64,000 nucleotides of DNA from Phycisphaerae bacterium (GCA_012729015.1 JAAYDY010000044.1:19891-83890); one strand, 5' to 3'. Positions 19,451-36,444 are shown, counted from the stretch's first letter. Numbers and translations are program-made. The notes: a model not told the origin generated them from the letters alone.

Positions 19451-21844
19451 ATGCGATGCAGCCTGCTTTGTTCGTGTGCTCTGACTCTCGTCGTGTCGAC
19501 AGGGGTATCGGCCCAGGGTGTGGACCCGCGGGAGCCGGCCGTCACGGCCGAGCAGATCGAATCGTCCATTCGCCGCGGGGTGGCGTATCTGTACAGCCTC
19601 CAGAACGATCGCGGCACGTGGGAAGAGTCGGCCACGGCCGATGAGGCAGCGAAGAAGGCCGGCGGCAGCGAGAGCGATCAGAGGACCGCTCGCCGGGACT
19701 TCGGCGGGCACACGGCGCTGTCGGTGCTGGCCCTGCTCTATTGCGGCGAGGACCCCAAGGATCCGCGCATCGACAAGGCCCTGAAGTTCCTCGCCGAAAT
19801 CGAGGTCACCGGCACGTACGTGTGCAGCATCCGTGCCAGCGTGTGGTCGAAGCTGAATGACGCGCGCTACCGGCGGCCGCTGAAGGCCGACGCAGCGTGG
19901 CTCCTGGGCGCCATGACGACGGCCGAAGGGGCGATTCCGGGGAACTTCAGCTACGGCACGCCGCATCCTCCGAAAGTGCATGACCACTCGAACACGCAGT
20001 ATGGCGTGCTTGGGCTTCGCGACGCGGCGATTCGAGGCGTGGAAATCTCGCCGACGATCTGGAAGGCCATTCTGGACAACATGCTGTCGTGCCAGGCGGA
20101 CAACGGCGGCTGGGGCTACTACATGTCTGCCAAGGACACGCCGTCGCACACTTACGGGGCGATGACGGTGGGGTGCCTGGCCAACATCTACATCGCCGAG
20201 GAGATGCTGCAACTGTTCGTCGAGGGCGACTACAACGGCCGTTCGACCAAGGGGTGCGGGCAACGCAGGCCGCCGGAGGCCATCGAGAAGGCGCTGGCCT
20301 GGATGGATCGCAATCTGCCGGTGGACTTCGCGCTGAAACAGGGGGGCGACGTGCAGAACTGGCCCACGACAGGCAACCACGGCATGGGCCGGTACTACCT
20401 GTATGCCCTGGAGCGGTGCGCCAGCGCTTGCGGGCGAAAGTCGTTCGGCGGCGTACTCTGGTTCGAGGAAGGCGCCAAACTGCTGCTCAGGCAGCAGGAC
20501 GCAGCCGACGGCGGGTGGAAGGCCACCTATTTCGGCAACGACATTCACACGTCATGGGCGCTTCTGTTTCTGTCGAAGGGGCAGGCCCCGGTTTTCTACA
20601 ACAAGCTGGACACCAAGTCCGACTGGAACAACCACACGCGGGCGGTGCCCTACATCTCCCAGTACATCGCCGACGAACTGGAGCAGCGGATCAACTGGCA
20701 GGTGATCGACATCAACGATCCGGTGGACACATGGCTCGACGCGCCCGTGCTGATGTTCAGCGGGCACGACATCCCGGCATTCACCGACGAACAGAAGAAG
20801 AAGCTGCGGCTCTACACCGATTCGGGCGGCACGATCCTGGCCGAAGCCTGCTGCTCGAAGATGGAGTTCGTGCGAGGGTTCAATGCCCTGGCTCGGGACG
20901 TCTGGCCCGAATGGGAGCTTCAGACGCTCGACCGCGAGCACCCGATGCTCTCGTTCCATCACCAGATTCGCGGCCGATTGCCGCAGGTCATGCACCTGGA
21001 TGACGGGTGCCGCAGCCGCGTGTTCCTCTTCGTCACCGATGCGTCGGGGGCGTGGAACCACAACATGCAGAAGGCGTATCTGACGTACTTCCAGTTGGGA
21101 ATGAATCTGGGGCGCTACGCCAGCGACAAGCGCATGCTGCGCAGCCGCGTGTTCTTCGAGCCGAACCTGTTCAAGGAACTGGCCGCCCAGGGCAAGGCCG
21201 CGCCGTCGTCGCAGGCACCGAATGCGACCGTGCGGCTGGCCGACTGGCCGACCGAGGGTAAGCGGCTCACGGACATCCGCGGCCTGCGGCATCTGGCCGA
21301 GACGCTGAAGCAGGCGGCCAATGTCACGCTCGAGACGACGACGCTGGAGGAGAACAACCTCGACGCACTGGACAAGGTTCAGATTGTCCACATGAGCGGG
21401 CACCACGGCTTCAGCGTCAGCGACGAGAATGTGGCCAAGCTGAAAGGGTTCATCGCGCGAGGCGGGCTCATCTGGGCCGATCCGCAGTGCGGCCGCGAAG
21501 CCTTCAAGAAATCATTCGAGGAATTCGTCGGCAAGCTCGCGCCGGGGGCTGCGCTGGAGACCATCGCGGCGGACGACCCGCTGATGACGGGCAACGGCCT
21601 GCCGCGGCAGGGCTTCGACCTGTCGAGCGTCCGCTACAAGCAGGCCGTGAAGCTGAAGGAAACGGCGGCAGTGCTCCAGGAGGTAAGGATCGGCGGCAAG
21701 CGCGCCATCGTCTACTCGCCCTACGACATCACGTGCGGGATGGACGGCCACGACTGCCCGAATTGTCTGGGACCGCGGCGGAACGACGCGCTGAAGATCG
21801 GGACGAACATCGTCCTGGCCACGCCCGACGCCGTCGGGCGGTAG
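19451..21844 (+). CDS. Secreted protein with prenyltransferase/squalene-oxidase-like repeats and a C-terminal DUF4159-like domain
   Basis: Signal peptide MRCSLLCSCALTLVVSTGVSAQ; QxxxGxW-like repeats (LQNDRGTW, CQADNGGWGY, QQDAADGGW); C-terminal HMSGHHGF...IWADPQCGR...DCPNCLG. Confidence 0.5.
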   Translation: MRCSLLCSCALTLVVSTGVSAQGVDPREPAVTAEQIESSIRRGVAYLYSLQNDRGTWEESATADEAAKKAGGSESDQRTARRDFGGHTALSVLALLYCGEDPKDPRIDKALKFLAEIEVTGTYVCSIRASVWSKLNDARYRRPLKADAAWLLGAMTTAEGAIPGNFSYGTPHPPKVHDHSNTQYGVLGLRDAAIRGVEISPTIWKAILDNMLSCQADNGGWGYYMSAKDTPSHTYGAMTVGCLANIYIAEEMLQLFVEGDYNGRSTKGCGQRRPPEAIEKALAWMDRNLPVDFALKQGGDVQNWPTTGNHGMGRYYLYALERCASACGRKSFGGVLWFEEGAKLLLRQQDAADGGWKATYFGNDIHTSWALLFLSKGQAPVFYNKLDTKSDWNNHTRAVPYISQYIADELEQRINWQVIDINDPVDTWLDAPVLMFSGHDIPAFTDEQKKKLRLYTDSGGTILAEACCSKMEFVRGFNALARDVWPEWELQTLDREHPMLSFHHQIRGRLPQVMHLDDGCRSRVFLFVTDASGAWNHNMQKAYLTYFQLGMNLGRYASDKRMLRSRVFFEPNLFKELAAQGKAAPSSQAPNATVRLADWPTEGKRLTDIRGLRHLAETLKQAANVTLETTTLEENNLDALDKVQIVHMSGHHGFSVSDENVAKLKGFIARGGLIWADPQCGREAFKKSFEEFVGKLAPGAALETIAADDPLMTGNGLPRQGFDLSSVRYKQAVKLKETAAVLQEVRIGGKRAIVYSPYDITCGMDGHDCPNCLGPRRNDALKIGTNIVLATPDAVGR

Positions 21845-21867
21845 CGCGGGGCGTCGCGCCGCCGTCA

Positions 21868-23022
21868 TCAGCCGAAGACTTGCCGCATGCGGTCGCAGTA
21901 GTAGCGCACAAGGTCCCACTTGGCATCGGGCGGGATACGGTGGTCCGGGCAGGGAATGAAGCCGCCCAGGTCCACCAGGGGGCGCAGCCGCTCGACCTCC
22001 GTGTCGATGGCGGCCCGGTCGCGGGAGAACACCACCTTGTTCATGCCTCCGACGCCGCGCAGGGCCTTGCCGTACTGCTGCCGCCATGGGGCGATGCTGG
22101 CCTTCCACGTTCCGACTTCGATGGGGAACATCGTGTTGACACCGTTGGCGAGCCACGTCGGGATCAGGGCGTCAATCATGCCGTCGCAGTCCAGCGACAC
22201 GATGTCGACGCCGTGCCTGGTCAGCAGGTCGGTGATGCGTTTGTAGTGCGGACCGACCTTGGCATCGAAGACGGAAGGAATCACCAGGGGGCCGTTCTTG
22301 AAGCAGATGTCTTCCCAGAAATGGCCGAAGTCGAATTTCGCGCCGGCGGCGAGAACGAATTCGACCGTGTGATAGCAGAGGTTGCCCACGGTATCGATGA
22401 TCTCGTCGTAGAGGGTCTCGTCGTCAGCCAGCAGGTAGCACGAGCCCTCGACGCCGAGGATATTGCGGATGTGGCCGAAGAGGCTTCCGCAGTAGAGGGC
22501 ATAGGGGTAGTCGCGCTTGTCGGCCCGGAGGAACTCCAGCCCTCCCTGGCCGTAGGGCACCAGTTTATCGTTAACGCGGACCGGCGACTCCAGCACGCGG
22601 GCTTCGCTGAACTCGTAGCGCCACTTGTAGTGCTCTTCCCACGACGCGCGATCGACGAGCGTGTGCTTGATCTCCGTGGGGATGCCCGTGGCCCCGGGCC
22701 GCTGGAGGACGATCACGCCGTCGCGGTTCATGACGTGCCTGGACCCGTCCGGGAACTCTTCGACAGCCCTCACTTCGAAATACGGCAGCAGTTCCATGCT
22801 GCCATGGAACGTGCTGTACCAGTCGAAATCGAATCCGAGCCGTTCGCTGAGGGCCACGCAGGTGGGGTTTCCGTCGCCCCAGGAGGCGGCTATCTCAGCC
22901 GTGAGGTGCCCTTCCTGTGCCCACTTGTCGAGGGTCTCGCGCCAGTAGCCGAAATGCACGAGCGGCAGCCTGTCGTACGGCTCATAGTGCAGCACGGCCA
23001 TAGCCCGCTCGCGGTGGGTCAT
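21868..23022 (-). CDS. Uroporphyrinogen decarboxylase (URO-D) family protein (methyltransferase/decarboxylase-like)
   Basis: URO-D/MtaA-like TIM-barrel layout; start chosen at MTHRERAMAVLHYE. Confidence 0.5.
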   Translation of the reverse strand: MTHRERAMAVLHYEPYDRLPLVHFGYWRETLDKWAQEGHLTAEIAASWGDGNPTCVALSERLGFDFDWYSTFHGSMELLPYFEVRAVEEFPDGSRHVMNRDGVIVLQRPGATGIPTEIKHTLVDRASWEEHYKWRYEFSEARVLESPVRVNDKLVPYGQGGLEFLRADKRDYPYALYCGSLFGHIRNILGVEGSCYLLADDETLYDEIIDTVGNLCYHTVEFVLAAGAKFDFGHFWEDICFKNGPLVIPSVFDAKVGPHYKRITDLLTRHGVDIVSLDCDGMIDALIPTWLANGVNTMFPIEVGTWKASIAPWRQQYGKALRGVGGMNKVVFSRDRAAIDTEVERLRPLVDLGGFIPCPDHRIPPDAKWDLVRYYCDRMRQVFG

Positions 23023-23223
23023 GGGTCGCGTTCCTTTTGACTTGTCACGTGCGGACATTCGAAGCCTCCTGCCGCCTGCACGGCAATAAGATTCCCCGGA
23101 CACACCAGACACTCTCCGGAATCAAGCATACTGCGTTTTCGTCGGATTGCCATGGACAGAAGTGGCATTCCCATGTACGATCATAAGCCGCGAACAAGGC
23201 CGTGACGCCACCGGGAGCCGCCC

Positions 23224-24018
23224 ATGATCGAACTCCGCCCCCCCGACATCCGCCCCAGGGTCCGTGTCGTCAACTACATCCATCCGCCCGCCGGACGCGC
23301 CTGGAACAACCGCTGCATTCCCGACTTCGAGCTGATCTGCGTGGTGTCCGGGCGATACGGCTACGAGTCCCCGCAGCAGCGGCCCGTGGCGCTGCCGGCC
23401 GGGTGCGTGCTGTGCATCCCGCCGGGGCCGCACAGCTTCTATCGCATCGACCGCGCCCGGCGGTCCACGATCAGCTGCATCCACTGCGAACTGAGCCACG
23501 AGGGCAACTACGCCGGCGGGGATTACCGCCTGACCCCACGACCGCAACTGGTCACGGACATGTCGGACGACAAGTCTATGGCCACACTGTTCCGCCGGTG
23601 CGCCGAGGCGTTCGCCGGCTACGGCCGGTACCGCAACGCCCTGGTCGAGACCATGACGCGCGAGATATGGCTGCGGCTGGCCGAGCGGTGGACCGGCGGG
23701 GACACGCGGCCCGTGTCGCACCGCCTGGAACAGATGCTCACGTTCCTCCGCCAGCACCTGATGCGTCCTGTCTCGCGGCGCGACCTGGCCGCGGCCTTCA
23801 GCGTCACGCCCGAGCACGTCAACGCCATGTTCAAGAAGCAACTCGGCATGACGCCCACTCGGTTCGTTCACCGCGAGCGGTGCCTGGTGGCCTACCGGCT
23901 GATGCGCGATGAGGGCCTCAGCGTCAAGGAGGCCGCCAGGATGACCGGCTTTGCCGACGCGTTTCATTTCTCGAAGGTGTTCAAGCGCGTCATGGGCATT
24001 CCGCCCAGCCGGGCGTGA
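23224..24018 (+). CDS. AraC-family transcriptional regulator (cupin sensor plus HTH)
   Basis: C-terminal double HTH with AraC signature ...LSVKEAARMTGFADAFHFSKVFKRVMG. Confidence 0.8.
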   Translation: MIELRPPDIRPRVRVVNYIHPPAGRAWNNRCIPDFELICVVSGRYGYESPQQRPVALPAGCVLCIPPGPHSFYRIDRARRSTISCIHCELSHEGNYAGGDYRLTPRPQLVTDMSDDKSMATLFRRCAEAFAGYGRYRNALVETMTREIWLRLAERWTGGDTRPVSHRLEQMLTFLRQHLMRPVSRRDLAAAFSVTPEHVNAMFKKQLGMTPTRFVHRERCLVAYRLMRDEGLSVKEAARMTGFADAFHFSKVFKRVMGIPPSRA

Positions 24019-25921: not shown

Positions 25922-26932
25922 CTACGCTTCCGTCTGAAGACAGTCTGCGCCCTGGAGATGTGCCGAGTAAAGGGCCCGCTGCACGCGATCCAGCAGCAGC
26001 GTCGCGTTGGCGTCGTCACCGCGCATGGTCGTCACGCCGATGCTGGCGGTCACACGGCCGTCGCGCGGGCCGATGGTCGTGGCGCGCACCGCATCGAGAA
26101 TGCGCCGCCCCGCCTTAGCGGCCCCGCGAACATCGGTGTCGGGCAATGCGACGAGCAGCTCATCCAGGCCGAAGCGCCCCAGGAAGTCGATGCCGCGGAG
26201 GTGAACCCGCACTTCGTCCACGAAGGCCTTGAACAGCTCGTCGGCGGCCTCCTGGCCGTTGGTCCGCTTAAACCGCATGAAGTTGTCGATGTCGATCAGC
26301 AGCAGCGACAGAGGTTGGCCGTGCCGACGGGCCCGGGCCATCTCGTCATTGAGCCTGGTGCAGAAGAACTCGAAGGCCCAGACACCTGTGGCCGGATCGA
26401 CCACTTGCATCCGGCGCCGCTCATCGTAGAGCTGGCATCGTCCGTGGCAGGCGGCCGCGAGGCGCGACACCAGTTGGAGGACGAGTTGGTGCTCGGGTGT
26501 GAAGTAGGACGGCTGATCGCTCGTGGCCACGACGAAGCCGCAGGGGCGATGCATTTCGACGATCGGCGTGGCGACCAGTGAACCTTGCGTGTTCTCCAGC
26601 CGCAGCGGCCCGACGGCCGGATCCTGCGGGTCGATGCTCTCGATCAGCAGATCGTGGCCGCCGTCGAGCACCTGGGCGATGGACGGCGCCTCGGGGTCCA
26701 GGGCGGCGTGGTTGATGAAGGTCGCGCTGAGTCCGTGGCTGCCGACGATCTTGAGCTGGGAGCGGTTGTCCGCGAGCATCACAATGGCGACCGCCCGCGG
26801 CTTCAGGAGCGAGAAAGCCACGTGGGCGAGGCCGCTCAGCCCCTCTTCCAGCGACCAGGAGCCGCTGATCCTCTGACAGGCTCCCAGCAACCGTTGACAG
26901 ACTTCCTTGAAATCCATGGCGACGGTCTCCAA
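25922..26932 (-). CDS. GAF-domain protein with a degenerate GGDEF domain (GLDEL in place of GG[DE]EF); probably non-catalytic
   Basis: GGDEF fold landmarks (DPATGVWAFEFF, RHGQPLSLLLIDIDNF) but active-site motif RFGLDELLV. Confidence 0.55.
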   Translation of the reverse strand: METVAMDFKEVCQRLLGACQRISGSWSLEEGLSGLAHVAFSLLKPRAVAIVMLADNRSQLKIVGSHGLSATFINHAALDPEAPSIAQVLDGGHDLLIESIDPQDPAVGPLRLENTQGSLVATPIVEMHRPCGFVVATSDQPSYFTPEHQLVLQLVSRLAAACHGRCQLYDERRRMQVVDPATGVWAFEFFCTRLNDEMARARRHGQPLSLLLIDIDNFMRFKRTNGQEAADELFKAFVDEVRVHLRGIDFLGRFGLDELLVALPDTDVRGAAKAGRRILDAVRATTIGPRDGRVTASIGVTTMRGDDANATLLLDRVQRALYSAHLQGADCLQTEA

Positions 26933-27042
26933 GAGGCGCCCCCTCTATAGTTCAATGTAGCCCAAGGTTCTACCCAAGTCAACGGATGTAAACGTCCGGT
27001 GCTCTGGGATTCCGTCGGAATCTCAACTGCCACAGAGTGCGC

Positions 27043-27071
27043 TTGACACCCCGTCGGGGTGTCGATACATT
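27043..27071 (+). promoter_or_regulatory. Sigma70-like promoter for the vWA-kinase operon (TTGACA 27043-27048, 17 nt, TACATT 27066-27071) with palindrome CACCCCG-TC-GGGGTG in the spacer
   Basis: Hexamers, spacing and the inverted repeat read directly. Confidence 0.4.
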
Positions 27072-27189
27072 CGTGGAGGTTCGGGCGGGGCGATTCAAGA
27101 AGGGCCGCAAGTCAGTTCTTTGTCGCATCGGCCGCAGCGCAGCGGGGCGATGCGGGGTTCTGTCGCGTCACAATCGAGAGGAGAATGCG

Positions 27190-27915
27190 ATGGCCGACCA
27201 GCAGGGCGCCAAGGTCAAGGGAATCGTGGACATTGTGTTTCTGATCGACGCCACGGGCAGCATGCAGCCGTGCATCGACGCACTGAAAGCCAACATTTCC
27301 ACCTTCATCGACACGCTGACGACCCCGAACGCCAACAACCAGGCGCCCGTGAAGCACTGGCGAGCCAAGGCCGTGGGCTACCGCGATTTCGGCAGCGACC
27401 AGCAGCCGCTGATCGATCACCCGTTCGTCGAAGACGCCGCGGCGATCAAGGCGCAACTGGCCGAGATTACCGCTGAAGGCGGCGGCGATGAGGCCGAATC
27501 GCTCCTGGATGCCCTGTACAGGGTGGCCACCATGGAACAGACCGGCAAGGGCGGCCAGTTCGAGCCGACGAAATGGCGTTACCGCAGCGACGCGGCGCGC
27601 GTGGTGATCGTCTTCACCGACGCACCCTACAAGGACGTCATGACGAGTCCGGCCGGCGGCACGTTCGACGACCTGAAGAATGCGATTCACGGCAACCGGA
27701 TCATCCTGAGCATCTTCGCCCCGAACCTGCCGTGCTACGACCTGCTGGCCGGGTTGGACAAGTCGGAACTGATGGCCTACGACTTCGACGCCTCGGACCT
27801 CCAGGGCTCGCAGAAGGCACTGGCCGAGTTCACAGCCGACCGCGAGAACTTCAGGCAGACCCTTGTCCAGTTGGCCAAGAGTGTGTCGAAGTCGGCCGAG
27901 GTACCGTCGCTCTAG
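27190..27915 (+). CDS. von Willebrand factor A (vWA) domain protein with a MIDAS motif, cytoplasmic (no signal peptide)
   Basis: IVDIVFLIDATGSM MIDAS-type motif; AGGAGA Shine-Dalgarno before ATG 27190. Confidence 0.7.
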   Translation: MADQQGAKVKGIVDIVFLIDATGSMQPCIDALKANISTFIDTLTTPNANNQAPVKHWRAKAVGYRDFGSDQQPLIDHPFVEDAAAIKAQLAEITAEGGGDEAESLLDALYRVATMEQTGKGGQFEPTKWRYRSDAARVVIVFTDAPYKDVMTSPAGGTFDDLKNAIHGNRIILSIFAPNLPCYDLLAGLDKSELMAYDFDASDLQGSQKALAEFTADRENFRQTLVQLAKSVSKSAEVPSL

Positions 27916-27937
27916 TGCGGCGCCGGGGAGACATGCC

Positions 27938-29323
27938 ATGGCCAAAATTGCCAGGCCCGGTGACGCGATCCGGGGCTACCGCATCATCGAGCTGATTCAC
28001 AAGGGCGCGATGGCCACATCGTATGCCGCGACGGCACCCGACGGTCGCAAGGTCTTCTTCAAGCAGTACAAGTCCCCCTCGGTCACCGTGGACTGGTACA
28101 ACGGCTACGTGGCATATCAGGCGGAGTTGAAGCGCCGCGTCGAGAGCACGCCGCTGGTCAACTTCACATACCGCATGATCGAGTTTTTCGAGGCCGACTT
28201 CGGCCCGCGCACGTTCTTCCAGGTGTTCGAGTTCGTCCGCGGCAATCTGGACATGGAGAAGGCCCTGGACGGGATGCGCCGGCGGCGCGATCCCGGCTCC
28301 TGGGATCAGGTGGTCATCCTGGCCAAGATCCTCATGAATGCGGTCGCCACGCTGCACGACGCACGGATCATCCACTGCGACCTCAAGCCGGCGAACATTC
28401 AATTGTTCCCTGACAAGTCCATCGCCGCAGGGTACCACCTGAAGCTCATCGACATGGACTTCTCGATCCTGTCGGACCGCCGAGCCCCGTGGCACGGGCA
28501 CAGCGCGTACGTCGGCAGCCCTCGCTATTTCTCGCCGGAGCACCTGCGCGGCCAGGTGCCGCTGCCGGCGTCGGACGTGTTCACCTGCGGCCTGATCCTT
28601 CACGAACTGCTCGCCGGGCGTCATCCCTATCGCAGCGGCGGCGACGACGAGGAAGAGGCCTATGCCCAGGGCGTTCTCGGGCACACGGCGCCGCCGCCGG
28701 CCCTGCTGGGCTCGATGCCCGCCCCTGCCGACGACGGCAAGGTGGCCGAGGCGATCCATCGCTGCCTGTCGCCCGATCCGTGGCAGCGTCCGACGGCCCG
28801 CGAGTTGAATCTGGTGCTGAACGGTCGCGGCGATCTGGCGCCCCGGTCGTCGCGACCTGCGGCCTCCGCGAGCCCAGTGGCCGACGCGCGCATCGTTCCC
28901 GCGACCCCTGCCGCAAGGCCAGCCGCCCGCATGGCGACGCCGGCCGAGGACGACGACCTGCCGCGTCTGCTGCCGGAGGGATTGCTGTCGGCGGCGACAC
29001 GACCGGTGACCGCGCGGACGCCCGCCCTGGAGCTCATCGGCCCCGGCGGGCAGCGGCTCAGTATGCGGGTGCGCACCGACGTGGGCCGCGCGATCTGCAA
29101 GCCGCTCGGCGAGGATTCCCTGTTCTGGGACCGCCTGCAATTCACCGTGGACCGCAAGGACGGCCGCTGGCTGGTGATTCCGAATGCAGCCGCCACCAAC
29201 GAGACCCTTCTGAACGGCGAAGCCATCAGCGTCGAAACGCCGCTCGCCGAGGGCGACACGCTGGCCGTCGGCCGGCAGGCCCGGGGCATCGCGAAGCTCC
29301 CGTTGACCGTTCACCTGGAGTGA
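27938..29323 (+). CDS. Hanks-type Ser/Thr protein kinase with a C-terminal FHA domain
   Basis: Catalytic loop HCDLKPANI, DFS (DFG-like), SPE (APE-like); P/A-rich linker; C-terminal FHA signature ...TNETLLNGEAI...GDTLAVG. Confidence 0.8.
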   Translation: MAKIARPGDAIRGYRIIELIHKGAMATSYAATAPDGRKVFFKQYKSPSVTVDWYNGYVAYQAELKRRVESTPLVNFTYRMIEFFEADFGPRTFFQVFEFVRGNLDMEKALDGMRRRRDPGSWDQVVILAKILMNAVATLHDARIIHCDLKPANIQLFPDKSIAAGYHLKLIDMDFSILSDRRAPWHGHSAYVGSPRYFSPEHLRGQVPLPASDVFTCGLILHELLAGRHPYRSGGDDEEEAYAQGVLGHTAPPPALLGSMPAPADDGKVAEAIHRCLSPDPWQRPTARELNLVLNGRGDLAPRSSRPAASASPVADARIVPATPAARPAARMATPAEDDDLPRLLPEGLLSAATRPVTARTPALELIGPGGQRLSMRVRTDVGRAICKPLGEDSLFWDRLQFTVDRKDGRWLVIPNAAATNETLLNGEAISVETPLAEGDTLAVGRQARGIAKLPLTVHLE

Positions 29324-29329
29324 CCGACC

Positions 29330-29719
29330 ATGACGTGGAAATGTGCGAAATGCGGTTTCTCGGCGAATGTGGACGGCGCGGCCATGTGCAGCGGCTGCGG
29401 CGATGTGCGCCTTGGGCGACTGGTGCTTGTGTCCGAGGAGACCGGACAGCAGATTGTCATGTCGGTAGACACCACCGTCGGCCGCGGGCTGCTGAGAACC
29501 TTCGCCGGCGACGACGCCCGGTACGCCGCCGAGCCGCAGTTCCGCGTCACGCGCGACGTGGCTGTCGGCAAGTGGACGGCCTCGCCCGCCGCAGGCACCA
29601 AGAACGCCACGTGCGTGGATGGCGTGCCGCTGGGCGACGCGCCCGTGCCGCTGGGCGAAGGCTCGGTGATCAGCATCGGACCGGATAAGATGCGGCTGGC
29701 CGTCAAGATCGAGTTCTGA
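29330..29719 (+). CDS. Zinc-ribbon plus FHA domain protein
   Basis: CAKCG...CSGCG zinc ribbon, FHA core NATCVDGVPL...GSVISIG; starts 6 nt after the kinase stop. Confidence 0.7.
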   Translation: MTWKCAKCGFSANVDGAAMCSGCGDVRLGRLVLVSEETGQQIVMSVDTTVGRGLLRTFAGDDARYAAEPQFRVTRDVAVGKWTASPAAGTKNATCVDGVPLGDAPVPLGEGSVISIGPDKMRLAVKIEF

Positions 29720-29732
29720 CCCGAGACCTCCC

Positions 29733-31445
29733 ATGGCGCTGAACTGGTTCAGACGAAAACCGGCGGACGTGGAGCCGAACCTCCAGGAGTTCAACGCCTA
29801 TTTCCTCATGCCGATGGCCGCGGACGGACGGCTGGCCCACACCGAGGAAACGCCCCTGGACATTGCCCAGTTCGTTTATGGCCTGGACGTGCTGATGGAG
29901 CGCAACCGGGAAGCCACCGAAGGAAGCCTGCGCGAGGCGATCCGCGCCGCCCAGGCCACTCCGTCGCTGACCGACGCCTGGGAGCCGCAGGAGGCATGGA
30001 ACAGCATCAACCGCCAGTCGCGCGGCATGACCGAGTCGCAGTACTGGCACGTGCGCGTCTGGCTGGAGAGCGAGGCCCGGCGTCTGGCGCGACCGTTCGT
30101 CCCGGGTCCGCGACCCGATCGGTTCGCGGACTCTTGCTCGGCACCAGCGCCGCGGGCAGCGATCTCGCAGTGGATTGGCGGGCCGATGGAGGACGCGTCG
30201 TCACAGGCAGAAACGTCGGTTGCCGCTCAGGAACCATCCGCCGAAGCCACGTTGCCGGCACCAGCCGTCACGGAGCCGTCGCCCGATGCCCCCGCCACCG
30301 CCTGCGACCGCGCTGCGACAACAAAGGCATCGTCCCCGAGACCGGCCGAGAGCTTCGAGCCGGTACTCTGCGACATTCCGCCCGAGACTGTCGAGCAGTT
30401 GCTTCGCGAGGTGCTTCGCGAGGCCGACATGAACGGCCCGTGCTGCGAGCGGGCCGGCGAGATCGTCTCCGGCGTAGAACGACTTCTGGAAGGCGATCCC
30501 CTGCCCGGGCTGGCCTTCGACGACTGGCGCTCGGGGCCCGCCAACCAGGCGGTCGTCGTGGACCGCCTGCCGTCGAATGCAGACGTGTGGTTTATCGGAG
30601 ACATCCACGGCGACGTGCTGTCGCTTCGCGTGGCGCTGGACTACCTCGACACGGTGAGCCGTCGTGACCTGCGCCAGCCCTACATCGTGTTTCTGGGCGA
30701 CCTGTTCGACCGTGGCCACATGGGGTACCAGGCCGTGCTCTGCCTGTTCCACGAGTTGCTGGTGCGCGGGCGGCAGATGTGCGTGCTGGCCGGCAATCAT
30801 GACGAGGCCCTCGGCTACCGCGAGGCCGACGACGCCTTCGTGGCCACGGTCAGCCCGTTCGATCTGGCGGCGTGGCTGAACGACCATCGAGAGGATGTGC
30901 CGCGGCGCGTCGGCCGAGCTGTGGTTCGCCTGTTCTCGTCGGCGCCACGGGCCGTGTTCTTCCCCGACGGCCTGCTGGCGGCCCACGGCGGCGTGCCTTT
31001 GCGGGATCTGGCCGAGACGCTGACCTGCCGGGCGGATCTGGATCGCCCGGAATGCCTTCAGGATTTCGTCTGGACGCGGGCACATCCACGGGCCCGCTTC
31101 AAGCACATCAACCGCCTCAGTCGCACGTGCGAGTTCGGTCATGAGGACTTCGAGTACTTCTGCGAGCGAGCCGCCCTCGCCCTGGACCGCCCGGTGGAGC
31201 GCATGATTCGCGGTCACGATCACGTCCTGCACCGCTTCGCGCTCTACGAGTCTTACGTGCGACACCCGATGCTGACGATCAACACCCTCTGCTACAGCCA
31301 GGGCGAGTACGGCCCCCACGAGCGGATGCCGTGCGTTGCCCGCTACGTGCCCGGCGGCGTGCCGCAGGTGCATCAGCTTCGCATCCCCGGCGAAGCCGTG
31401 TGCCGAGTCTACCCGCCGGACGCCGGAGACGACGACGCCGGATGA
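29733..31445 (+). CDS. PPP-family (calcineurin-like) Ser/Thr phosphoprotein phosphatase with a ~280-aa uncharacterised N-terminal domain and an acidic P/A/S/E-rich linker
   Basis: GDIHGD, GDLFDRG, GNHDE, HGG metallophosphatase motifs in order. Confidence 0.8.
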   Translation: MALNWFRRKPADVEPNLQEFNAYFLMPMAADGRLAHTEETPLDIAQFVYGLDVLMERNREATEGSLREAIRAAQATPSLTDAWEPQEAWNSINRQSRGMTESQYWHVRVWLESEARRLARPFVPGPRPDRFADSCSAPAPRAAISQWIGGPMEDASSQAETSVAAQEPSAEATLPAPAVTEPSPDAPATACDRAATTKASSPRPAESFEPVLCDIPPETVEQLLREVLREADMNGPCCERAGEIVSGVERLLEGDPLPGLAFDDWRSGPANQAVVVDRLPSNADVWFIGDIHGDVLSLRVALDYLDTVSRRDLRQPYIVFLGDLFDRGHMGYQAVLCLFHELLVRGRQMCVLAGNHDEALGYREADDAFVATVSPFDLAAWLNDHREDVPRRVGRAVVRLFSSAPRAVFFPDGLLAAHGGVPLRDLAETLTCRADLDRPECLQDFVWTRAHPRARFKHINRLSRTCEFGHEDFEYFCERAALALDRPVERMIRGHDHVLHRFALYESYVRHPMLTINTLCYSQGEYGPHERMPCVARYVPGGVPQVHQLRIPGEAVCRVYPPDAGDDDAG

Positions 31446-32269
31446 GCAGCGAGAACGTCCGCAAACAGTGCTGCATCTGCGGCACGCTTCACCCGCTCAC
31501 GCACACGGGCCCCTGCACGAGTTGCTTCGGGGACTCGTGGCGGTTGTGGTGCACCGTCCATCAGCAGGTGCTTGAGGCGGCCGCGTGCAGCCAGTGCGCC
31601 CGCGAAGAGCGCCGCCGGAAGATGGTTCCAGCCCGTGTGCCGCTGACGGTGCGCTGCGGCGGCCGCGCGTGGCGCCTGGACGCCGGGCCGGTCGTGATCG
31701 GTCGCGACGACGACTGCGACATCCGCATCGACAGCGACGCCGTGAGCCGCCGCCACTGCGAGTTGTCGCCGCTGGGTTCGCGGTGGCGGGTGCGCGACCT
31801 GGAGAGCACGAACGGAACACTGCTGGATACGACAGCCATCACGGCACGAGGCGTTCTGGTCACGGGCAACAGCCTCCTGCGGCTGGGAACCGGTCCGATC
31901 CTGGAACTGTCGCTGGAGCCGCCGCCTGCACCGCCACCGGCCGTCCCCGCGTGGCATACGACGACCCGCGCCCCCTCGACGGGACGGGACAGCATGTCCG
32001 CCCGTCGCGTCACCCGGCCGCCCCATGACCCCGTGGCCGTCACCGCACTCGGATTCGCTGTGGTCGCCCTGATCGCCAGCTTCACCCCGTTCGGGTTCGT
32101 TGCCGCCATTGCCGGCCTGACGCTGGGGGCGAGCGCCTGCAAGCGCACCTGCGACGCCCCATTCACCTACGGCGGCATGGGCATTGCGGTCCTCGCGATG
32201 GTCCTCAGCGGCCTGGCACTGCTCCTGGGCATTGCCATAGCCGTGCAAGGAATGGAGCGTCACCTGTAG
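31442..32269 (+). CDS. Double zinc-ribbon plus FHA protein with C-terminal transmembrane helices
   Basis: CCICG...CTSC and CSQC cysteine pairs, FHA core VVIGRDDDCDIRIDSDAVSRRHCEL...NGTLL, hydrophobic C-terminus; ATGA overlap with the phosphatase stop. Confidence 0.7.
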   Translation: MSSENVRKQCCICGTLHPLTHTGPCTSCFGDSWRLWCTVHQQVLEAAACSQCAREERRRKMVPARVPLTVRCGGRAWRLDAGPVVIGRDDDCDIRIDSDAVSRRHCELSPLGSRWRVRDLESTNGTLLDTTAITARGVLVTGNSLLRLGTGPILELSLEPPPAPPPAVPAWHTTTRAPSTGRDSMSARRVTRPPHDPVAVTALGFAVVALIASFTPFGFVAAIAGLTLGASACKRTCDAPFTYGGMGIAVLAMVLSGLALLLGIAIAVQGMERHL

Positions 32270-33950: not shown

Positions 33951-36164
33951 TCATGCCGTCTCCGCAGCGGCCGGGCGAATCTCCTGAATCTCCCATGCCC
34001 GCTTGCCGGCATCGACGGCAAGCTCCACCGTGTCTCCGACCTTGCTGCCCATGAACGCCAGCGCCAGGGGCGAGCGGTACGAGAACACGTTGTTTTGCGG
34101 CGCGGCGTCCCACGGACCCAGGAACGTCATCGTCTCGGTCTTGCCGCTGCCGAGGTCGCGGGCCGTGACGACGCTGCCGATGGTCACGTGGTCCACAGCG
34201 GCCATGTCCGCCCCGATCAGCCGCGCCATCTTCATGTCGGCTTCCATGCGCGCCGCCTTCTCGGTCAGGAGGTTCCGTTCTTCCAGCGCAGCGGTGAATT
34301 CGGCATTCTCGCTCAGGTCGCCGAAGGCCGCCGCTTCGCCGATGGCCTTGGCGTTGGCCGCCATCTTGATATTGACCAGGTGGGCGAACTCCTGCTGGTG
34401 CCGCTGAAGTCCCTCGGCCGTCGTGTAGATGACGTCGTCCTCCTCCCACGGAGGCACGTCCTTCAGGAACAGACTGGGATGCGTGCGCGTAATCAGGTCG
34501 AGCACCTTCAGCCGCGCGTGCTCGCCGAGAACGAAGTTGCGCACGGCGGCATGGTGGACGCGCGAGGCCCCGTGATCGTCCGCTTCCTTCAGCACGGTGT
34601 GCAGATACTCGTAGTCTTTCTGCGACAGGGCGGCGCGGAGCTGCGACAGGATGGCCTTCTGCTGGTCCTTGTCAAATGTCGTGTCGCGGGCCAGGCCACC
34701 GACCGCAATCAGCAGGGCCACCGCCGCGTCGAGGCCCTTCAGTGAGCCTGTGACATCAGGACACCTGCCCGCGGCCATGGCGCGCCAGAGCCACGCCACG
34801 GCATAGGGATAGCGCTCGGGCCGGGTGAGAATGAGCTCAATCGCCTGCCGCACGTCGGCCGAGAATCCGTGCTCCAGGAGCCCCTGAACGATCCACTCGC
34901 AGACGCCCTGCGACGCGCCGGGCATGACGGCGAGCCAGACATCGTGCCACCCGGAGTGCAGCACGTCGCGAACGTAGCCCAGCAGGCACCGCGCCACATC
35001 GTCACTGGCGACCGGCCGCAGCAACATCGACAGGTCCGTCACGCCCGAGAGCACCGATTCCAGCGCGTTGGGCTTCGGCTCGGGCACGTCGGGCGCGTGC
35101 CGCCGCAGTCCGGCCATCAGCGCCAGCGCGGCGATGCCCATTGCCGGCTCGTCCGCGCGCCACGACTCGAACCGGTCCATCAGTTCGCGGCCGAAGTGCT
35201 GCATCACCTCCGGATGCGTCGGCCGGCTACCGCACTCCTTCAGGTACGTCAGCACCGTGGTCAGCTTCTGCTCCGCCGCTGCTGCGCCATCAAATGCCGC
35301 GCGAAGCTCGTCCTCGTAGGCCACCGGCCGATTTCGCAGGAACAGCCAGGGCTGCGCGTCGTCCGACATCTCGATCATCGGATCGCGTCTGCACTGCACC
35401 TTGGCCTCGGCCCACCATTTCGCCCACGCCGGCCCCGAGATGAGCGGCTTCAGGTGCTCCTTGAGTTCCTTCAGTTCCAGCCGCGGCCCATAGGTGCCGA
35501 GAACCGTCTTCACCAGTTCCGCCGGAGCCTCGGCGGCCATGTGCTCCAGGCCCTCGCGGTCCTTGACCATGCGCGACCGCAGGTCCGAGTCGGCCACGGG
35601 CTCCAGCTTGTCCAGGGCCAGCCGGTCGTACGTGCGCGAGCGGTCGTCGAACGCCACTTCGAGCGTCCTGGCCACCGCATCCAGACCGACCACCTGCCCG
35701 AGCTTGTCGAGCTGCGTGTCCATGACGCACGTGCCCGGCCGCAGTTGCAGCAACCGGTCGAACCGCTTCACGGCGGTGGCGAAAGGAATCGCCGCATGAA
35801 GGACGGTCATCTCGGCCATGGTGCCGACGTCGCCGCATACGGTCTCGTACGCGCCGGCCACCTCCTCGCGCAGGCTGCCGCTGCCTTCCAGCCATCCGGC
35901 CGCCTGCCGCACCAGGTTCAGTCCCGCGGCGGCCCCCTGACGCTCGATCACCTGTGACAGCAGAAACCAGAACAATGAATCCGCCACGCCGCTCTGGTCG
36001 CGACGGCTCACGGCCTCGACCACCGCCATCAGGCCTGGAACGTCGGCGTCCTCACGGGCCACCGCCTCCAGCCACAGGGCCTCCAGCTCGTCGAACCGCT
36101 TCTTGGTCACCAGCTTCCGCAACCGAGTCACGTCCGCCTGTGCATCACCGGGTATTTCCGTCAT
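33951..36164 (-). CDS. Large GreA/GreB-family transcript cleavage factor homolog: ~590-aa unknown N-terminal region fused to a complete GreA module
   Basis: C-terminal 150 aa contain GreA signatures FGDLSENAEF and SYRSPLALAFMGSKVGDTVEL. Confidence 0.65.
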   Translation of the reverse strand: MTEIPGDAQADVTRLRKLVTKKRFDELEALWLEAVAREDADVPGLMAVVEAVSRRDQSGVADSLFWFLLSQVIERQGAAAGLNLVRQAAGWLEGSGSLREEVAGAYETVCGDVGTMAEMTVLHAAIPFATAVKRFDRLLQLRPGTCVMDTQLDKLGQVVGLDAVARTLEVAFDDRSRTYDRLALDKLEPVADSDLRSRMVKDREGLEHMAAEAPAELVKTVLGTYGPRLELKELKEHLKPLISGPAWAKWWAEAKVQCRRDPMIEMSDDAQPWLFLRNRPVAYEDELRAAFDGAAAAEQKLTTVLTYLKECGSRPTHPEVMQHFGRELMDRFESWRADEPAMGIAALALMAGLRRHAPDVPEPKPNALESVLSGVTDLSMLLRPVASDDVARCLLGYVRDVLHSGWHDVWLAVMPGASQGVCEWIVQGLLEHGFSADVRQAIELILTRPERYPYAVAWLWRAMAAGRCPDVTGSLKGLDAAVALLIAVGGLARDTTFDKDQQKAILSQLRAALSQKDYEYLHTVLKEADDHGASRVHHAAVRNFVLGEHARLKVLDLITRTHPSLFLKDVPPWEEDDVIYTTAEGLQRHQQEFAHLVNIKMAANAKAIGEAAAFGDLSENAEFTAALEERNLLTEKAARMEADMKMARLIGADMAAVDHVTIGSVVTARDLGSGKTETMTFLGPWDAAPQNNVFSYRSPLALAFMGSKVGDTVELAVDAGKRAWEIQEIRPAAAETA

Positions 36165-36444
36165 CCGCCGTCCTCGCTCCATGATCCCGTGCATGAGACT
36201 CCAACCGGTCCAGCCCCAGGAGTCTATACTGTGACAGCCCGGCGGACAAGGGTCTGCCGTAGCAACAGCCGGTCGAGACGACCACGACGATGCCCTGCGC
36301 GGTCTCCCTCACCCGGCCGGGAAAGCGGCTGCGGGTGCCCGGATTTGCGGAACCCCGCCGCGGGCGGCCGGGGTTGAACCTTCGTGCGGCCGATAGACGC
36401 TGTCGCCGCAAACGCAGAGACACTCCGGAACAGGAGATGGGAAG

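What the first reader, a model, noticed from the sequence alone, without database searches (positions are those of the whole stretch)
27037..32269. Five-gene, translationally coupled vWA / Ser-Thr kinase-FHA / zinc-ribbon-FHA / PPP-phosphatase / double-zinc-ribbon-FHA-TM cassette
Five same-strand genes are packed with 22, 6 and 13-nt gaps and a final ATGA overlap, downstream of a good sigma70-like promoter. In order they encode (a) a cytoplasmic vWA protein with a MIDAS motif, (b) a Hanks kinase ending in an FHA domain, (c) a small zinc-ribbon FHA protein, (d) a PPP-family rather than PP2C phosphatase with a large unknown N-terminal domain, and (e) a double-zinc-ribbon FHA protein with a hydrophobic C-terminus. 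The kinase/phosphatase/FHA logic recalls the T6SS threonine-phosphorylation checkpoint (PpkA/PppA/Fha) and the vWA-kinase-PP2C ternary modules. But no secretion-system genes are present, the phosphatase is PPP-type, and there are two distinct zinc-ribbon FHA readers. I do not recognise this combination as a named system. It could be a membrane-anchored phosphosignalling switch, or possibly a conflict/defence module, since vWA plus kinase cassettes are known in that role.
Basis: partly seen in the sequence, partly recalled or inferred. Interest (0 to 1): 0.7.

Follow-up and report, generated by a model that had tools for sequence, protein, structure and literature searches.

The report
Conserved vWA–kinase–phosphatase membrane signalling cassette
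The five genes are real and form an elaborated copy of a four-gene protein-phosphorylation cassette (adaptor, kinase, phosphatase, membrane anchor), which moves as a unit between many bacterial phyla, has no paper describing it that I could find, and has no known cellular role.

Summary
Five co-directional genes (27190-32269) have 22, 6 and 13 nt gaps and an ATGA overlap, behind a TTGACA-17-TACATT promoter. They encode a vWA protein, a Hanks kinase with a C-terminal FHA, a Zn-ribbon-FHA protein, a eukaryote-like PPP phosphatase, and a double-Zn-ribbon-FHA-TM protein.

Comparative genomics changes the picture. The conserved unit has four genes: vWA, kinase-FHA, PPP phosphatase and a double-Zn-ribbon membrane anchor. 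It is colinear in 36 of 41 testable loci from about ten phyla, including cultivated Rhizobium, Microvirga, Sphingomonas and Roseomonas. The small Zn-ribbon-FHA gene is present in 13 of 59 loci. The FHA inside the anchor occurs only in a narrow Phycisphaerae clade. Both are lineage-specific add-ons.

The vWA is 78-86% identical across unrelated phyla, which indicates horizontal transfer. It ends in an almost invariant tail, SVS(K/R)SAETVAL. No T6SS genes, defence islands, phage copies or non-kinase PADLOC hits were found.

The best reading is a self-contained, membrane-tethered Ser/Thr phospho-switch. Its closest relatives in logic are the Deinococcus DRA0331-0334 operon, the Sulfolobus ArnA/ArnB/ArnC/PP2A module and the TerY-P triad, but it is a member of none of them. 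I rate it a new variant of a known kind; its output is unknown.

The parts
27043..27071 (+). Sigma-70-like promoter TTGACA-17 nt-TACATT. It leaves a leader of about 110 nt with no Rfam match and no unusual fold.
27190..27915 (+). Gene A: a cytoplasmic stand-alone vWA protein (241 aa). MIDAS-like D20-x-T22-x-S24 (DxSGS in most relatives), invariant G97-G98-x-D100..E103-S104 where the MIDAS Thr usually sits, and T143-D144. The C-terminal tail LAKSVSKSAEVPSL (27874-27912) corresponds to the near-invariant family tail SVS(K/R)SAETVAL-COOH.
27938..29323 (+). Gene B: a Hanks-type Ser/Thr kinase (461 aa). Kinase domain at about aa 15-290 (27980-28807). Catalytic residues are intact and it is non-RD (HCDLKPAN, DFS, VFFKQYK Lys, SPEH). 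A Pro/Ala-rich linker leads to a C-terminal non-canonical FHA at about aa 364-458 (29027-29311).
29330..29719 (+). Gene C: a 129-aa protein with an N-terminal CxxC..CxxC Zn ribbon (aa 5-23) and an FHA fold (aa 30-128). The FHA is a paralogue of the kinase's FHA: G-R/K and N-x-T are kept, and S-x-x-H is replaced by E-P-Q-F. It is a lineage-specific accessory gene.
29733..31445 (+). Gene D: a PPP-family Ser/Thr phosphatase (570 aa). Helical N-domain aa 1-160 (29733-30212), disordered linker 161-205, pre-catalytic helices plus catalytic domain 211-565 (30363-31427). Motifs present: GDIHGD, GDLFDRG, GNHDE, HGG, RGHDH.
31442..32269 (+). Gene E: the membrane anchor (275 aa). Double Zn ribbon aa 9-52 (31466-31597; C10/C13/C25/C28 and C37/H40/C49/C52). 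Canonical FHA aa 74-150 (31661-31891; GR..SRRH..TNGT). Pro-rich linker. Two hydrophobic segments (about 32033-32104 and 32174-32248). It is the positional and architectural orthologue of the FHA-less double-Zn-ribbon tail-anchored protein that follows the phosphatase in other phyla.

Best explanation
The region is one operon encoding a self-contained, membrane-tethered Ser/Thr phospho-switch. It is an elaborated member of a widespread, horizontally mobile four-gene cassette.

Shown by the data:
- Kinase B has all catalytic residues and is a non-RD Hanks kinase, so it is the writer.
- Phosphatase D has the full PPP metal and phosphate motifs, so it is the eraser.
- A is a small cytosolic vWA protein with a MIDAS-like site and an extraordinarily conserved C-terminal Ser/Thr-rich tail.
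- E carries a conserved double Zn ribbon at its N-terminus and is membrane-inserted at its C-terminus.
- A, B, D and E-type genes are inherited and transferred together.

Inferred:
- The kinase phosphorylates the vWA tail (SVSxSAE(T)VAL) and/or the Pro/Ser/Thr-rich linkers of the kinase and the anchor.
- FHA modules read these marks. In this organism there are three: the kinase's own, protein C's, and the canonical one in E. They assemble vWA, kinase and anchor into a complex at the inner membrane.
- The Zn ribbons act as phospho-independent docking modules for the vWA protein, as in ArnA-ArnB.
- The PPP phosphatase dissolves the complex.
- The MIDAS face of the vWA protein then engages or releases an unknown, probably conserved, cellular ligand. 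That interaction is the output.
- In relatives whose anchor carries periplasmic TPR or FGE-sulfatase-like domains, the anchor would also be the sensor.
For: Gene order vWA -> kinase-FHA -> PPP is colinear in 36 of 41 loci that have enough upstream sequence. A double-Zn-ribbon/TM gene follows the phosphatase in at least 32 of 48 loci. Pairwise divergences of A, B and D co-vary (Spearman 0.87-0.93). B and D start/stop overlaps occur in other phyla too. No other gene family is consistently linked.

Catalytic motifs are conserved across about 57 kinases and 61 phosphatases. D is PPP by profile and by fold. C has an FHA fold. The FHA of E is closest to the pThr-binding FhaA, GarA and DgcB domains. 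The vWA tail is near-invariant in 49 of 51 loci. Natural kinase-vWA fusions exist in the same vWA family (P0352, P0355). Some relatives have anchors with extracytoplasmic domains.

Experimentally studied analogues use the same logic. ArnA (ZnF-FHA) binds phosphorylated ArnB (vWA), ArnC writes and PP2A (a PPP) erases. The Deinococcus vWA-STK-FHA-PP2C operon is the second example.

Flanking genes in 10 annotated contexts are housekeeping, metabolic or two-component genes. Synteny with the downstream GH39 and GreA-like genes persists in relatives at 60-64% identity.
Against: No phosphorylation, interaction or localisation has been shown for any member; all mechanistic steps beyond the domain assignments are inference.

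FHA domains normally need pThr, but the window's vWA tail lacks the Thr found in most relatives (AEVPSL against AETVAL). The kinase-type and C-type FHA domains also lack the canonical Ser/His, so they may not read phosphate at all.

The MIDAS Thr position is occupied by an invariant Asp, so ligand binding may differ from classical vWA domains.

No output (DNA-binding domain, enzyme or effector) is encoded. The biological role is therefore unassigned, and a defence role is not excluded.
Confidence: 0.55

Rival explanations
1. An anti-phage or conflict system that works like the TerY-P triad. The vWA protein senses an invader-derived cue, the kinase/phosphatase pair sets a threshold, and unchecked phosphorylation of host or phage proteins, or membrane perturbation by the tail-anchored Zn-ribbon protein, aborts infection.
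For: TerY-P (vWA + PP2C + kinase) modules are reported to act as stand-alone defence systems. The cassette is accessory and horizontally transferred: the vWA is 78-86% identical between Alpha- and Betaproteobacteria, Myxococcota, Acidobacteriota and Thermodesulfobacteriota. It sits on only a few Rhizobium and Microvirga megaplasmids. Members of the same vWA family are fused to TPR-TIR and to FRG domains. The kinase scores against defence-kinase models such as mad6 and PD-T4-6, although these hits are generic to kinase domains.
Against: PADLOC gives no hit for the vWA, phosphatase, C or E proteins. None of 10 inspected neighbourhoods is a defence island. There are no copies in phage genomes or IMG/VR contigs. 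Sequence conservation is very strong (mean pairwise vWA identity 76%), unlike fast-evolving sensors. Synteny is stable in the Phycisphaerae lineage. No recognisable effector domain is encoded.
Confidence: 0.2
2. A dedicated regulator of one specific cellular process, as in its studied analogues: surface-structure or motility gene expression (ArnA/ArnB) or DNA-damage/oxidative-stress signalling (Deinococcus DRA0331-0334). In this reading the vWA/FHA complex acts on a transcription factor or on other kinases rather than forming a membrane signalosome of its own.
For: The domain set matches that of ArnA/ArnB/ArnC/PP2A and of the Deinococcus operon. Two-component or c-di-GMP signalling genes are often nearby: a GAF-GGDEF gene lies divergently upstream in the window, and histidine kinases or response regulators occur within 8 kb in 19 loci.
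Against: No sequence-level orthology to ArnB or ArnA. The A profile finds no ArnB or vWA2 chain in the PDB, and ArnA's FHA is only rank 42 among fold hits. There is no detectable similarity of A to Deinococcus plasmid records at E<=1e-5. The neighbouring signalling genes differ from locus to locus and are abundant in these genomes anyway. No DNA-binding domain is encoded.
Confidence: 0.2
3. Chance juxtaposition of unrelated signalling genes with no common function.
For: Kinase, FHA and vWA genes are individually common in Planctomycetota.
Against: The same order recurs with overlapping or near-overlapping reading frames in dozens of genomes from about ten phyla, and divergence is correlated between the genes.
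Confidence: 0.01

Closest known systems
Deinococcus radiodurans DRA0331-DRA0334 operon (bioRxiv 10.64898/2026.01.23.701218)
   Same: The gene order is the same: vWA protein, Ser/Thr kinase, stand-alone FHA protein (FraH-like), Ser/Thr phosphatase. The phosphatase operon also carries a second, non-canonical FHA-type docking domain. The proposed mechanism is a push-pull phospho-docking switch.
   Different: The Deinococcus phosphatase is PP2C with a KI-FHA domain, not PPP. Its kinase is itself transmembrane and lacks a C-terminal FHA. No separate Zn-ribbon membrane anchor is described. The vWA proteins are not detectably close (no Deinococcus hit at E<=1e-5; chromosome II may not be in that collection).
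Sulfolobus acidocaldarius ArnA/ArnB module with kinases ArnC/ArnD and phosphatase PP2A
   Same: The four functional types are the same, including a Zn-finger + FHA protein, a vWA protein whose C-terminus is the phospho-acceptor, a Hanks kinase and a PPP-family phosphatase. The Zn finger docks on the vWA protein and the FHA binds its phosphorylated C-terminus.
   Different: It is archaeal. From my own knowledge, the arn genes are not one operon. ArnB has extra beta-sandwich and helix-bundle domains, whereas A is a bare 241-aa vWA. There is no sequence-level orthology and no membrane anchor.
TerY-P triad (Anantharaman 2012; Gao 2020 defence system)
   Same: It is a three-gene vWA + eukaryote-type kinase + phosphatase module that is mobile and self-contained. 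A Zn ribbon is associated with the module.
   Different: TerY-P uses PP2C, and its Zn ribbon or OB fold is fused to the kinase C-terminus. There is no FHA and no membrane anchor. The PADLOC library (which I expect to include TerY-P models; I did not confirm this) gave no hit for A at E<=0.1.
T6SS threonine-phosphorylation pathway (PpkA/PppA/Fha1)
   Same: It combines a kinase, a phosphatase and an FHA reader, and (from my own knowledge) a vWA domain within PpkA, acting at the inner membrane.
   Different: No T6SS genes are nearby in the window or in any related locus. PppA is PP2C. In PpkA the vWA is periplasmic and fused to the kinase.
FraH of Anabaena (double zinc ribbon + Pro-rich linker + FHA; from my own knowledge, not tested here)
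   Same: The N-terminal double Zn ribbon followed by an FHA domain matches the cytoplasmic part of E.
   Different: As I recall it, FraH has the FHA at the C-terminus and no TM segments. No sequence comparison could be made here.

Membership tests
TerY-P triad | TerY-like vWA protein | tested here: not met
   PADLOC scan of A returned no family at E<=0.1. That library should contain the TerY-P system models, but I did not confirm this. Pfam gives only generic VWA/VWA_4 hits.
TerY-P triad | PP2C (PPM) phosphatase | tested here: not met
   D is Metallophos/PPP by Pfam, by PDB profile and by fold.
TerY-P triad | Kinase fused C-terminally to a Zn ribbon or OB fold | tested here: not met
   The C-terminal domain of B is an FHA-type domain. 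The Zn ribbons are on separate proteins.
T6SS threonine phosphorylation pathway | Embedded in or adjacent to T6SS core genes (TssA-M, Hcp, VgrG) | tested here: not met
   The annotated flanks of the window's own contigs show none. No such family recurs in about 70 related loci.
T6SS threonine phosphorylation pathway | PP2C phosphatase PppA and a transmembrane PpkA with a periplasmic vWA | tested here: not met
   D is PPP. B has no TM segment. The vWA is a separate cytosolic protein.
ArnA/ArnB module | Zn-finger + FHA protein | tested here: met
   C has CxxC..CxxC followed by an FHA fold. Its Zn ribbon aligns to ArnA 5a8i residues 1-28 (E 0.018), and its FHA aligns structurally to 5a8i (TM 0.57-0.63). 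The match is in architecture only.
ArnA/ArnB module | ArnB-type vWA with beta-sandwich and C-terminal helix bundle; orthology to ArnB | tested here: not met
   A is 241 aa with a vWA domain only. The A2 profile finds only weak integrin I-domain hits in the PDB and no ArnB or vWA2.
ArnA/ArnB module | Phosphorylation-dependent FHA-vWA binding | not testable with these tools
   This needs biochemistry or multimer modelling.
Deinococcus DRA0331-0334-type operon | Operon order vWA - STK - FHA protein - phosphatase | tested here: met
   The window order is A (vWA), B (STK), C (FHA), D (phosphatase).
Deinococcus DRA0331-0334-type operon | PP2C phosphatase with KI-FHA; transmembrane kinase | tested here: not met
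   D is PPP with a helical N-domain. B is soluble with a C-terminal FHA.
PPP-family protein Ser/Thr phosphatases | GDxHG, GDxxDRG and GNH(E/D) motifs plus downstream His metal ligands, and the PPP fold | tested here: met
   GDIHGD (289-294), GDLFDRG (322-328), GNHDE (354-358), H418 and RGHDH (493-497) are invariant or near-invariant in 30-61 homologues. PDB profile hits to PP2B, PP5 and PP2A at about 1e-8. Foldseek E 4e-13 to PP5. Note that most relatives have D instead of R in the second motif.
Hanks-type (eukaryote-like) Ser/Thr kinases | Catalytic Lys, HxDLKPxN loop, DFG-type Mg site, APE-type motif | tested here: met
   VFFKQYK, H(A/C/T)DLKPxN, D(M/T/V/L)DFS and SPEH are conserved in 54-57 of 57 sequences. 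The kinase is non-RD. Pkinase E 8e-25.
Canonical pThr-binding FHA domains | G-R, S-x-x-H and N-G signature residues | tested here: inconclusive
   E has all of them (GR, SRRH, TNGT). C and the kinase FHA keep G-(R/K) and N-x-T but have E-P-Q-F or D-x-x-Q-C in place of S-x-x-H. The fold is FHA, but phosphate binding is uncertain.
vWA domains with MIDAS | DxSxS ... T ... D metal site | tested here: inconclusive
   D20-x-T/S22-x-S24 and T143-D144 are invariant. The position usually holding the MIDAS Thr (GGGT) is GGG-D100-E-P/A-E103-S104, which is also invariant. This assignment rests on motif spacing; no structure of A was modelled.

The most novel reading that the evidence does not exclude
The four-gene core (vWA with an invariant SVSxSAETVAL tail, a non-RD kinase with a non-canonical FHA, a eukaryote-like PPP phosphatase, and a double-Zn-ribbon tail-anchored protein) is a previously unrecognised, inter-phylum mobile system with its own biology. 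One possibility is an effector-less abortive-infection or stress system whose output is kinase activity or membrane perturbation. The other is a bacterial counterpart of the archaeal Arn switch in which a phospho-regulated vWA adaptor controls a universally conserved cellular target. The second possibility would explain 80% or greater identity of the vWA across phyla.
Probability: 0.3. Interest if true: 0.75.

Novelty: new variant of a known kind. Interest (0 to 1): 0.55.

Why it matters
Operons coupling a eukaryote-like kinase, a phosphatase, FHA readers and a vWA adaptor are beginning to be recognised as a recurrent prokaryotic signalling design (Arn in Sulfolobus, DRA0331-0334 in Deinococcus, TerY-P in defence). 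The output is unknown in every one of these cases. This family offers a compact, sharply defined version that uses a PPP instead of a PP2C eraser, has a dedicated Zn-ribbon membrane anchor, and has a vWA protein whose sequence and C-terminal tail are almost frozen across phyla. It also occurs in cultivable, genetically tractable bacteria (Rhizobium leguminosarum complex, Microvirga, Sphingomonas, Roseomonas), so the question of what a vWA/FHA phospho-switch controls in bacteria becomes directly testable. The window's version has three FHA modules and is the most elaborate one seen.

Tried and rejected
- PADLOC, NCBIfam and Pfam scans of all five proteins gave no named system. Only generic kinase hits appeared in PADLOC.
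- T6SS and other secretion contexts: none in the flanks or in related loci.
- A search for further conserved neighbours, by all-against-all clustering of ORFs in about 70 loci, found only the core genes. Histidine kinases and response regulators recur (19 loci) but at variable positions and orientations. The other recurrent clusters were antisense or alternative-frame artefacts of the core genes.
- Phage or virus origin: no relative in IMG/VR contigs and only one weak partial hit in phage genomes.
- The plasmid search found the cassette only on 1.1-1.4 Mb Rhizobium and Microvirga megaplasmids. The one annotated record was poorly annotated.
- Regulatory RNA in the 110-nt leader: no Rfam hit, and the fold is no better than shuffles.
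- The vWA profile against the PDB found no significant relative, so no structural homologue is assigned by sequence.
- The Anantharaman 2012 TerY-P paper is not held, so the TerY-P features are taken from later papers that cite it.
- Several full-text literature queries for this domain combination found no paper describing the PPP-type cassette. One query found the Deinococcus PP2C-type operon.
- The N-terminal domain of D could not be searched by fold on its own, because whole-model hits are dominated by the catalytic domain. The top hit being full-length PP5 (TPR + PPP) is only a hint of similar architecture.

Full report

Yes. ORF listing and independent gene calls on public contigs of the same organism (a Phycisphaerae MAG) give five co-directional genes:
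- A: 27190-27915, 241 aa
- B: 27938-29323, 461 aa
- C: 29330-29719, 129 aa
- D: 29733-31445, 570 aa
- E: 31442-32269, 275 aa

The true start is ATG 27190, which has a GGAG-type ribosome-binding site. The promoter-like TTGACA-17-TACATT sits at 27043-27071. No terminator-like site follows E, and the next gene (GH39) starts 76 nt later. G+C content does not differ from the flanks.

**2. What the proteins are**

Pfam confirms VWA in A, Pkinase plus a weak C-terminal FHA in B, a weak FHA in C, Metallophos in D and a strong FHA in E.

D is a genuine PPP-family protein phosphatase.
- A 30-sequence profile hits calcineurin, PP5, PP2A and PP1 chains at E 1e-8 to 1e-4.
- The AF2 model (pLDDT 83, pTM 0.78) is most similar to full-length PP5 (Foldseek E 4e-13).
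- GDIHGD, GDLFDRG, GNHDE, HGG and RGHDH are conserved.
- Residues 1-160 form a confidently modelled helical domain, followed by a disordered linker (161-201).
- Only a Planctomycete-like subset of homologues has this N-domain, and it matches no Pfam family.

C folds with pLDDT 87 into a small Zn ribbon plus an FHA beta-sandwich. All top Foldseek hits are FHA domains.

The FHA of C and the C-terminal FHA of the kinase are paralogues. Both keep G-(R/K) and N-x-T but replace the S-x-x-H phosphate-binding signature with E-P-Q-F or D-x-x-Q-C. The FHA of E is canonical (GR, SRRH, TNGT) and is closest to mycobacterial FhaA, GarA and Bdellovibrio DgcB.

The kinase keeps the catalytic Lys, the H-x-D-L-K-P-x-N loop (non-RD), D-F-S and S-P-E-H in 54-57 of 57 homologues.

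E has two Zn sites (C10/C13/C25/C28 and C37/H40/C49/C52) and two hydrophobic segments near its C-terminus.

**3. The comparative picture**

The phosphatase has more than 700 homologues. A scan of one genome per species returned 75 loci. tblastn with the five window proteins shows vWA -> kinase-FHA -> PPP in the same order and orientation in these groups:
- Alphaproteobacteria (Rhizobium leguminosarum complex, Microvirga, Roseomonas, Belnapia, Sphingomonas, Allosphingosinicella)
- Betaproteobacteria
- Myxococcota
- Gemmatimonadota (Longimicrobium and relatives)
- Acidobacteriota
- Thermodesulfobacteriota
- Victivallales
- Flavobacteriales
- More remotely, Puniceicoccales, Fibrobacterota and Desulfovibrio

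Of 41 loci with at least 5.5 kb upstream of D, 36 carry both A and B.

Immediately downstream of D there is almost always a protein of about 180-200 aa. It has a conserved N-terminal double Zn ribbon (RCPNCGT..GECEACH..YYCTNH..CPQCG), a Pro-rich disordered linker and a C-terminal TM helix. E is the positional and architectural orthologue of this protein, with an FHA inserted. Only two other proteins in the 5.8-billion-sequence collection share the full Zn-ribbon-FHA-TM architecture (60-64% identity). Both are followed by the same GH39 and GreA-like genes as in the window.

Gene C occurs in 13 of 59 loci (Longimicrobia, Victivallales, Flavobacteriales and the window).

Other lineage-specific additions:
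- one or two vWA paralogues between A and B
- extra stand-alone kinase-type FHA proteins with long low-complexity regions
- anchors extended by periplasmic TPR or FGE-sulfatase-like domains, or by large multi-TM/Ig-like regions

No further gene family is consistently linked. The conserved system is therefore four genes, and the window holds an elaborated five-gene version.

**4. Evolutionary behaviour**

Divergences of A, B and D co-vary (Spearman 0.87-0.93), so the cassette evolves as a unit.

The vWA protein is strikingly conserved, with a mean pairwise identity of 76%. It is 78-86% identical between Alphaproteobacteria, Betaproteobacteria, Myxococcota, Acidobacteriota and Thermodesulfobacteriota. 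That is no lower than between two alphaproteobacterial orders, which indicates inter-phylum transfer. The Gemmatimonadota, PVC and Flavobacteriales versions are deep branches at 51-60%.

In Rhizobium and Microvirga the cassette lies on 1.1-1.4 Mb megaplasmids of only some strains. It is absent from phage genomes and IMG/VR contigs.

The vWA family comprises 112 representative clusters at E<=1e-30 and 356 at E<=1e-10. Most members are stand-alone proteins of about 240 aa. A few are fused to a kinase (P0352, P0355), to TPR-TIR (P0296) or to an FRG domain (P0307).

**5. A conspicuous feature**

The vWA protein ends in ...LAASVS(K/R)SAETVAL-COOH in 49 of 51 loci. The window has LAKSVSKSAEVPSL. Even the divergent vWA paralogues keep GKSVS. 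A Ser/Thr-rich, invariant C-terminal tail is the obvious candidate phospho-acceptor. The T-V-A-L-COOH ending would form a pT-x-x-L motif, which from general knowledge is typical of FHA ligands. The window version lacks that Thr, so this step is uncertain here.

**6. How it most likely works**

Shown:
- an intact writer (B) and eraser (D)
- a MIDAS-type adaptor (A)
- up to three FHA modules
- a Zn-ribbon protein inserted in the membrane (E)
- co-inheritance of all of these

Inferred:
- B phosphorylates the tail of A and/or the Pro/Ser/Thr-rich linkers.
- The FHA modules and Zn ribbons assemble A, B and E (and C where present) at the inner membrane.
- D resets the system.
- The MIDAS face of A binds an unknown, probably conserved, ligand as the output.
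- Where the anchor has a periplasmic domain, it would also sense.

The inference leans on two experimentally studied analogues. In Sulfolobus, ArnA (Zn finger + FHA) docks by its Zn finger on ArnB (vWA) and binds the phosphorylated C-terminus of ArnB through its FHA. ArnC writes and the PPP enzyme PP2A erases. In Deinococcus radiodurans, the DRA0331-0334 operon encodes vWA, STK, an FHA protein and a PP2C with a KI-FHA domain, in the same order. FHA and KI-FHA act there as antagonistic docking switches.

**7. Rivals**

A defence or conflict role, as for the TerY-P triad, is not excluded.
- For: mobility, patchy distribution, and TIR/FRG fusions in the vWA family.
- Against: no PADLOC hits beyond the generic kinase domain; no defence-island context in ten inspected neighbourhoods; very strong sequence conservation; stable synteny in the Phycisphaerae lineage; and no effector domain.

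A dedicated regulator of one process (motility or pili, as with Arn; DNA damage, as in Deinococcus) is possible, but no orthology or consistent neighbour supports it.

Chance adjacency is refuted.

**8. Comparison with the known, and novelty**

The cassette works like TerY-P, Arn and DRA0331-0334, but it fails the defining features of each.
- The phosphatase is PPP, not PP2C.
- The kinase carries an FHA rather than a Zn ribbon or OB fold.
- There is a separate Zn-ribbon membrane anchor.
- The vWA is neither TerY-like nor ArnB-like.

It is not part of a T6SS. Full-text searches found no description of this PPP-type cassette. I classify it as a new variant of a known kind. The theme of vWA, eSTK, FHA and phosphatase is established. 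This particular four-gene family, its breadth, its frozen vWA tail and its anchor appear undescribed.

**9. Verdict**

Interest is 0.55. This is a well-defined, widespread and experimentally accessible module of unknown output, rather than a categorically new mechanism.

Noticed in passing
window 25922-26932 (- strand): The divergently transcribed upstream gene encodes a GAF + GGDEF protein whose signature motif reads RFGLDEL instead of GG(D/E)EF, so it may be a degenerate, non-catalytic cyclase. Its promoter-like site (26982-26954, - strand) lies back to back with the cassette promoter.
   Followed up: partly
window 33951-36194 (- strand): An unusually long (about 740 aa) protein with HTH_GRAD, GreA_GreB_N and GreA_GreB C-terminal domains. 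It is conserved in synteny with the cassette and a GH39 gene in relatives at 60-64% identity.
   Followed up: no
proteins P0296, P0307, P0352, P0355: Members of the same vWA subfamily occur fused to TPR + TIR, to an FRG domain, and to an N-terminal Hanks kinase. Their genomic context could not be looked up with the permitted tools.
   Followed up: partly
L002 6549-7607; L001 7173-7526: Longimicrobium-type loci carry extra stand-alone copies of the kinase-type non-canonical FHA. One is preceded by about 250 aa of Thr/Ala/Pro/Ser-rich low-complexity sequence, which is a possible multi-site kinase substrate.
   Followed up: partly
L082 7687-10026; L086 5439-7907; L004 7622-9610; L014 and L032 anchors: Some double-Zn-ribbon anchors are expanded to 350-820 aa, with multiple TM segments and large extracytoplasmic parts (repeated beta-rich regions, TPR-like helices, an FGE-sulfatase-like C-terminus). 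This suggests receptor-like versions of the anchor.
   Followed up: partly
L085 4932-6941: A homologue of the phosphatase (48% identity, with the N-terminal helical domain) stands alone without vWA or kinase genes. An FHA-GGDEF protein is encoded on the same contig (123-1079).
   Followed up: no
L081 5027-5773; L082 2874-3635 and 3732-4493; L004 1753-2415; L086 1820-2593: Second and third vWA paralogues (24-30% identity to A) are inserted between A and the kinase in PVC-type loci. They have DASxSM MIDAS motifs and keep the GKSVS motif near the C-terminus.
   Followed up: partly
window about 20000-24000: Cumulative GC skew rises up to about 22 kb and falls afterwards. This coincides with a switch in predominant gene orientation. 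It could mark a replication-related skew turning point or simply reflect strand bias of the genes.
   Followed up: no
phosphatase family alignment: In most relatives the second PPP motif is GDLFDDG: the Arg that contacts phosphate in classical PPPs is replaced by Asp. The window protein keeps Arg (GDLFDRG). The consequence for catalysis is unknown.
   Followed up: no
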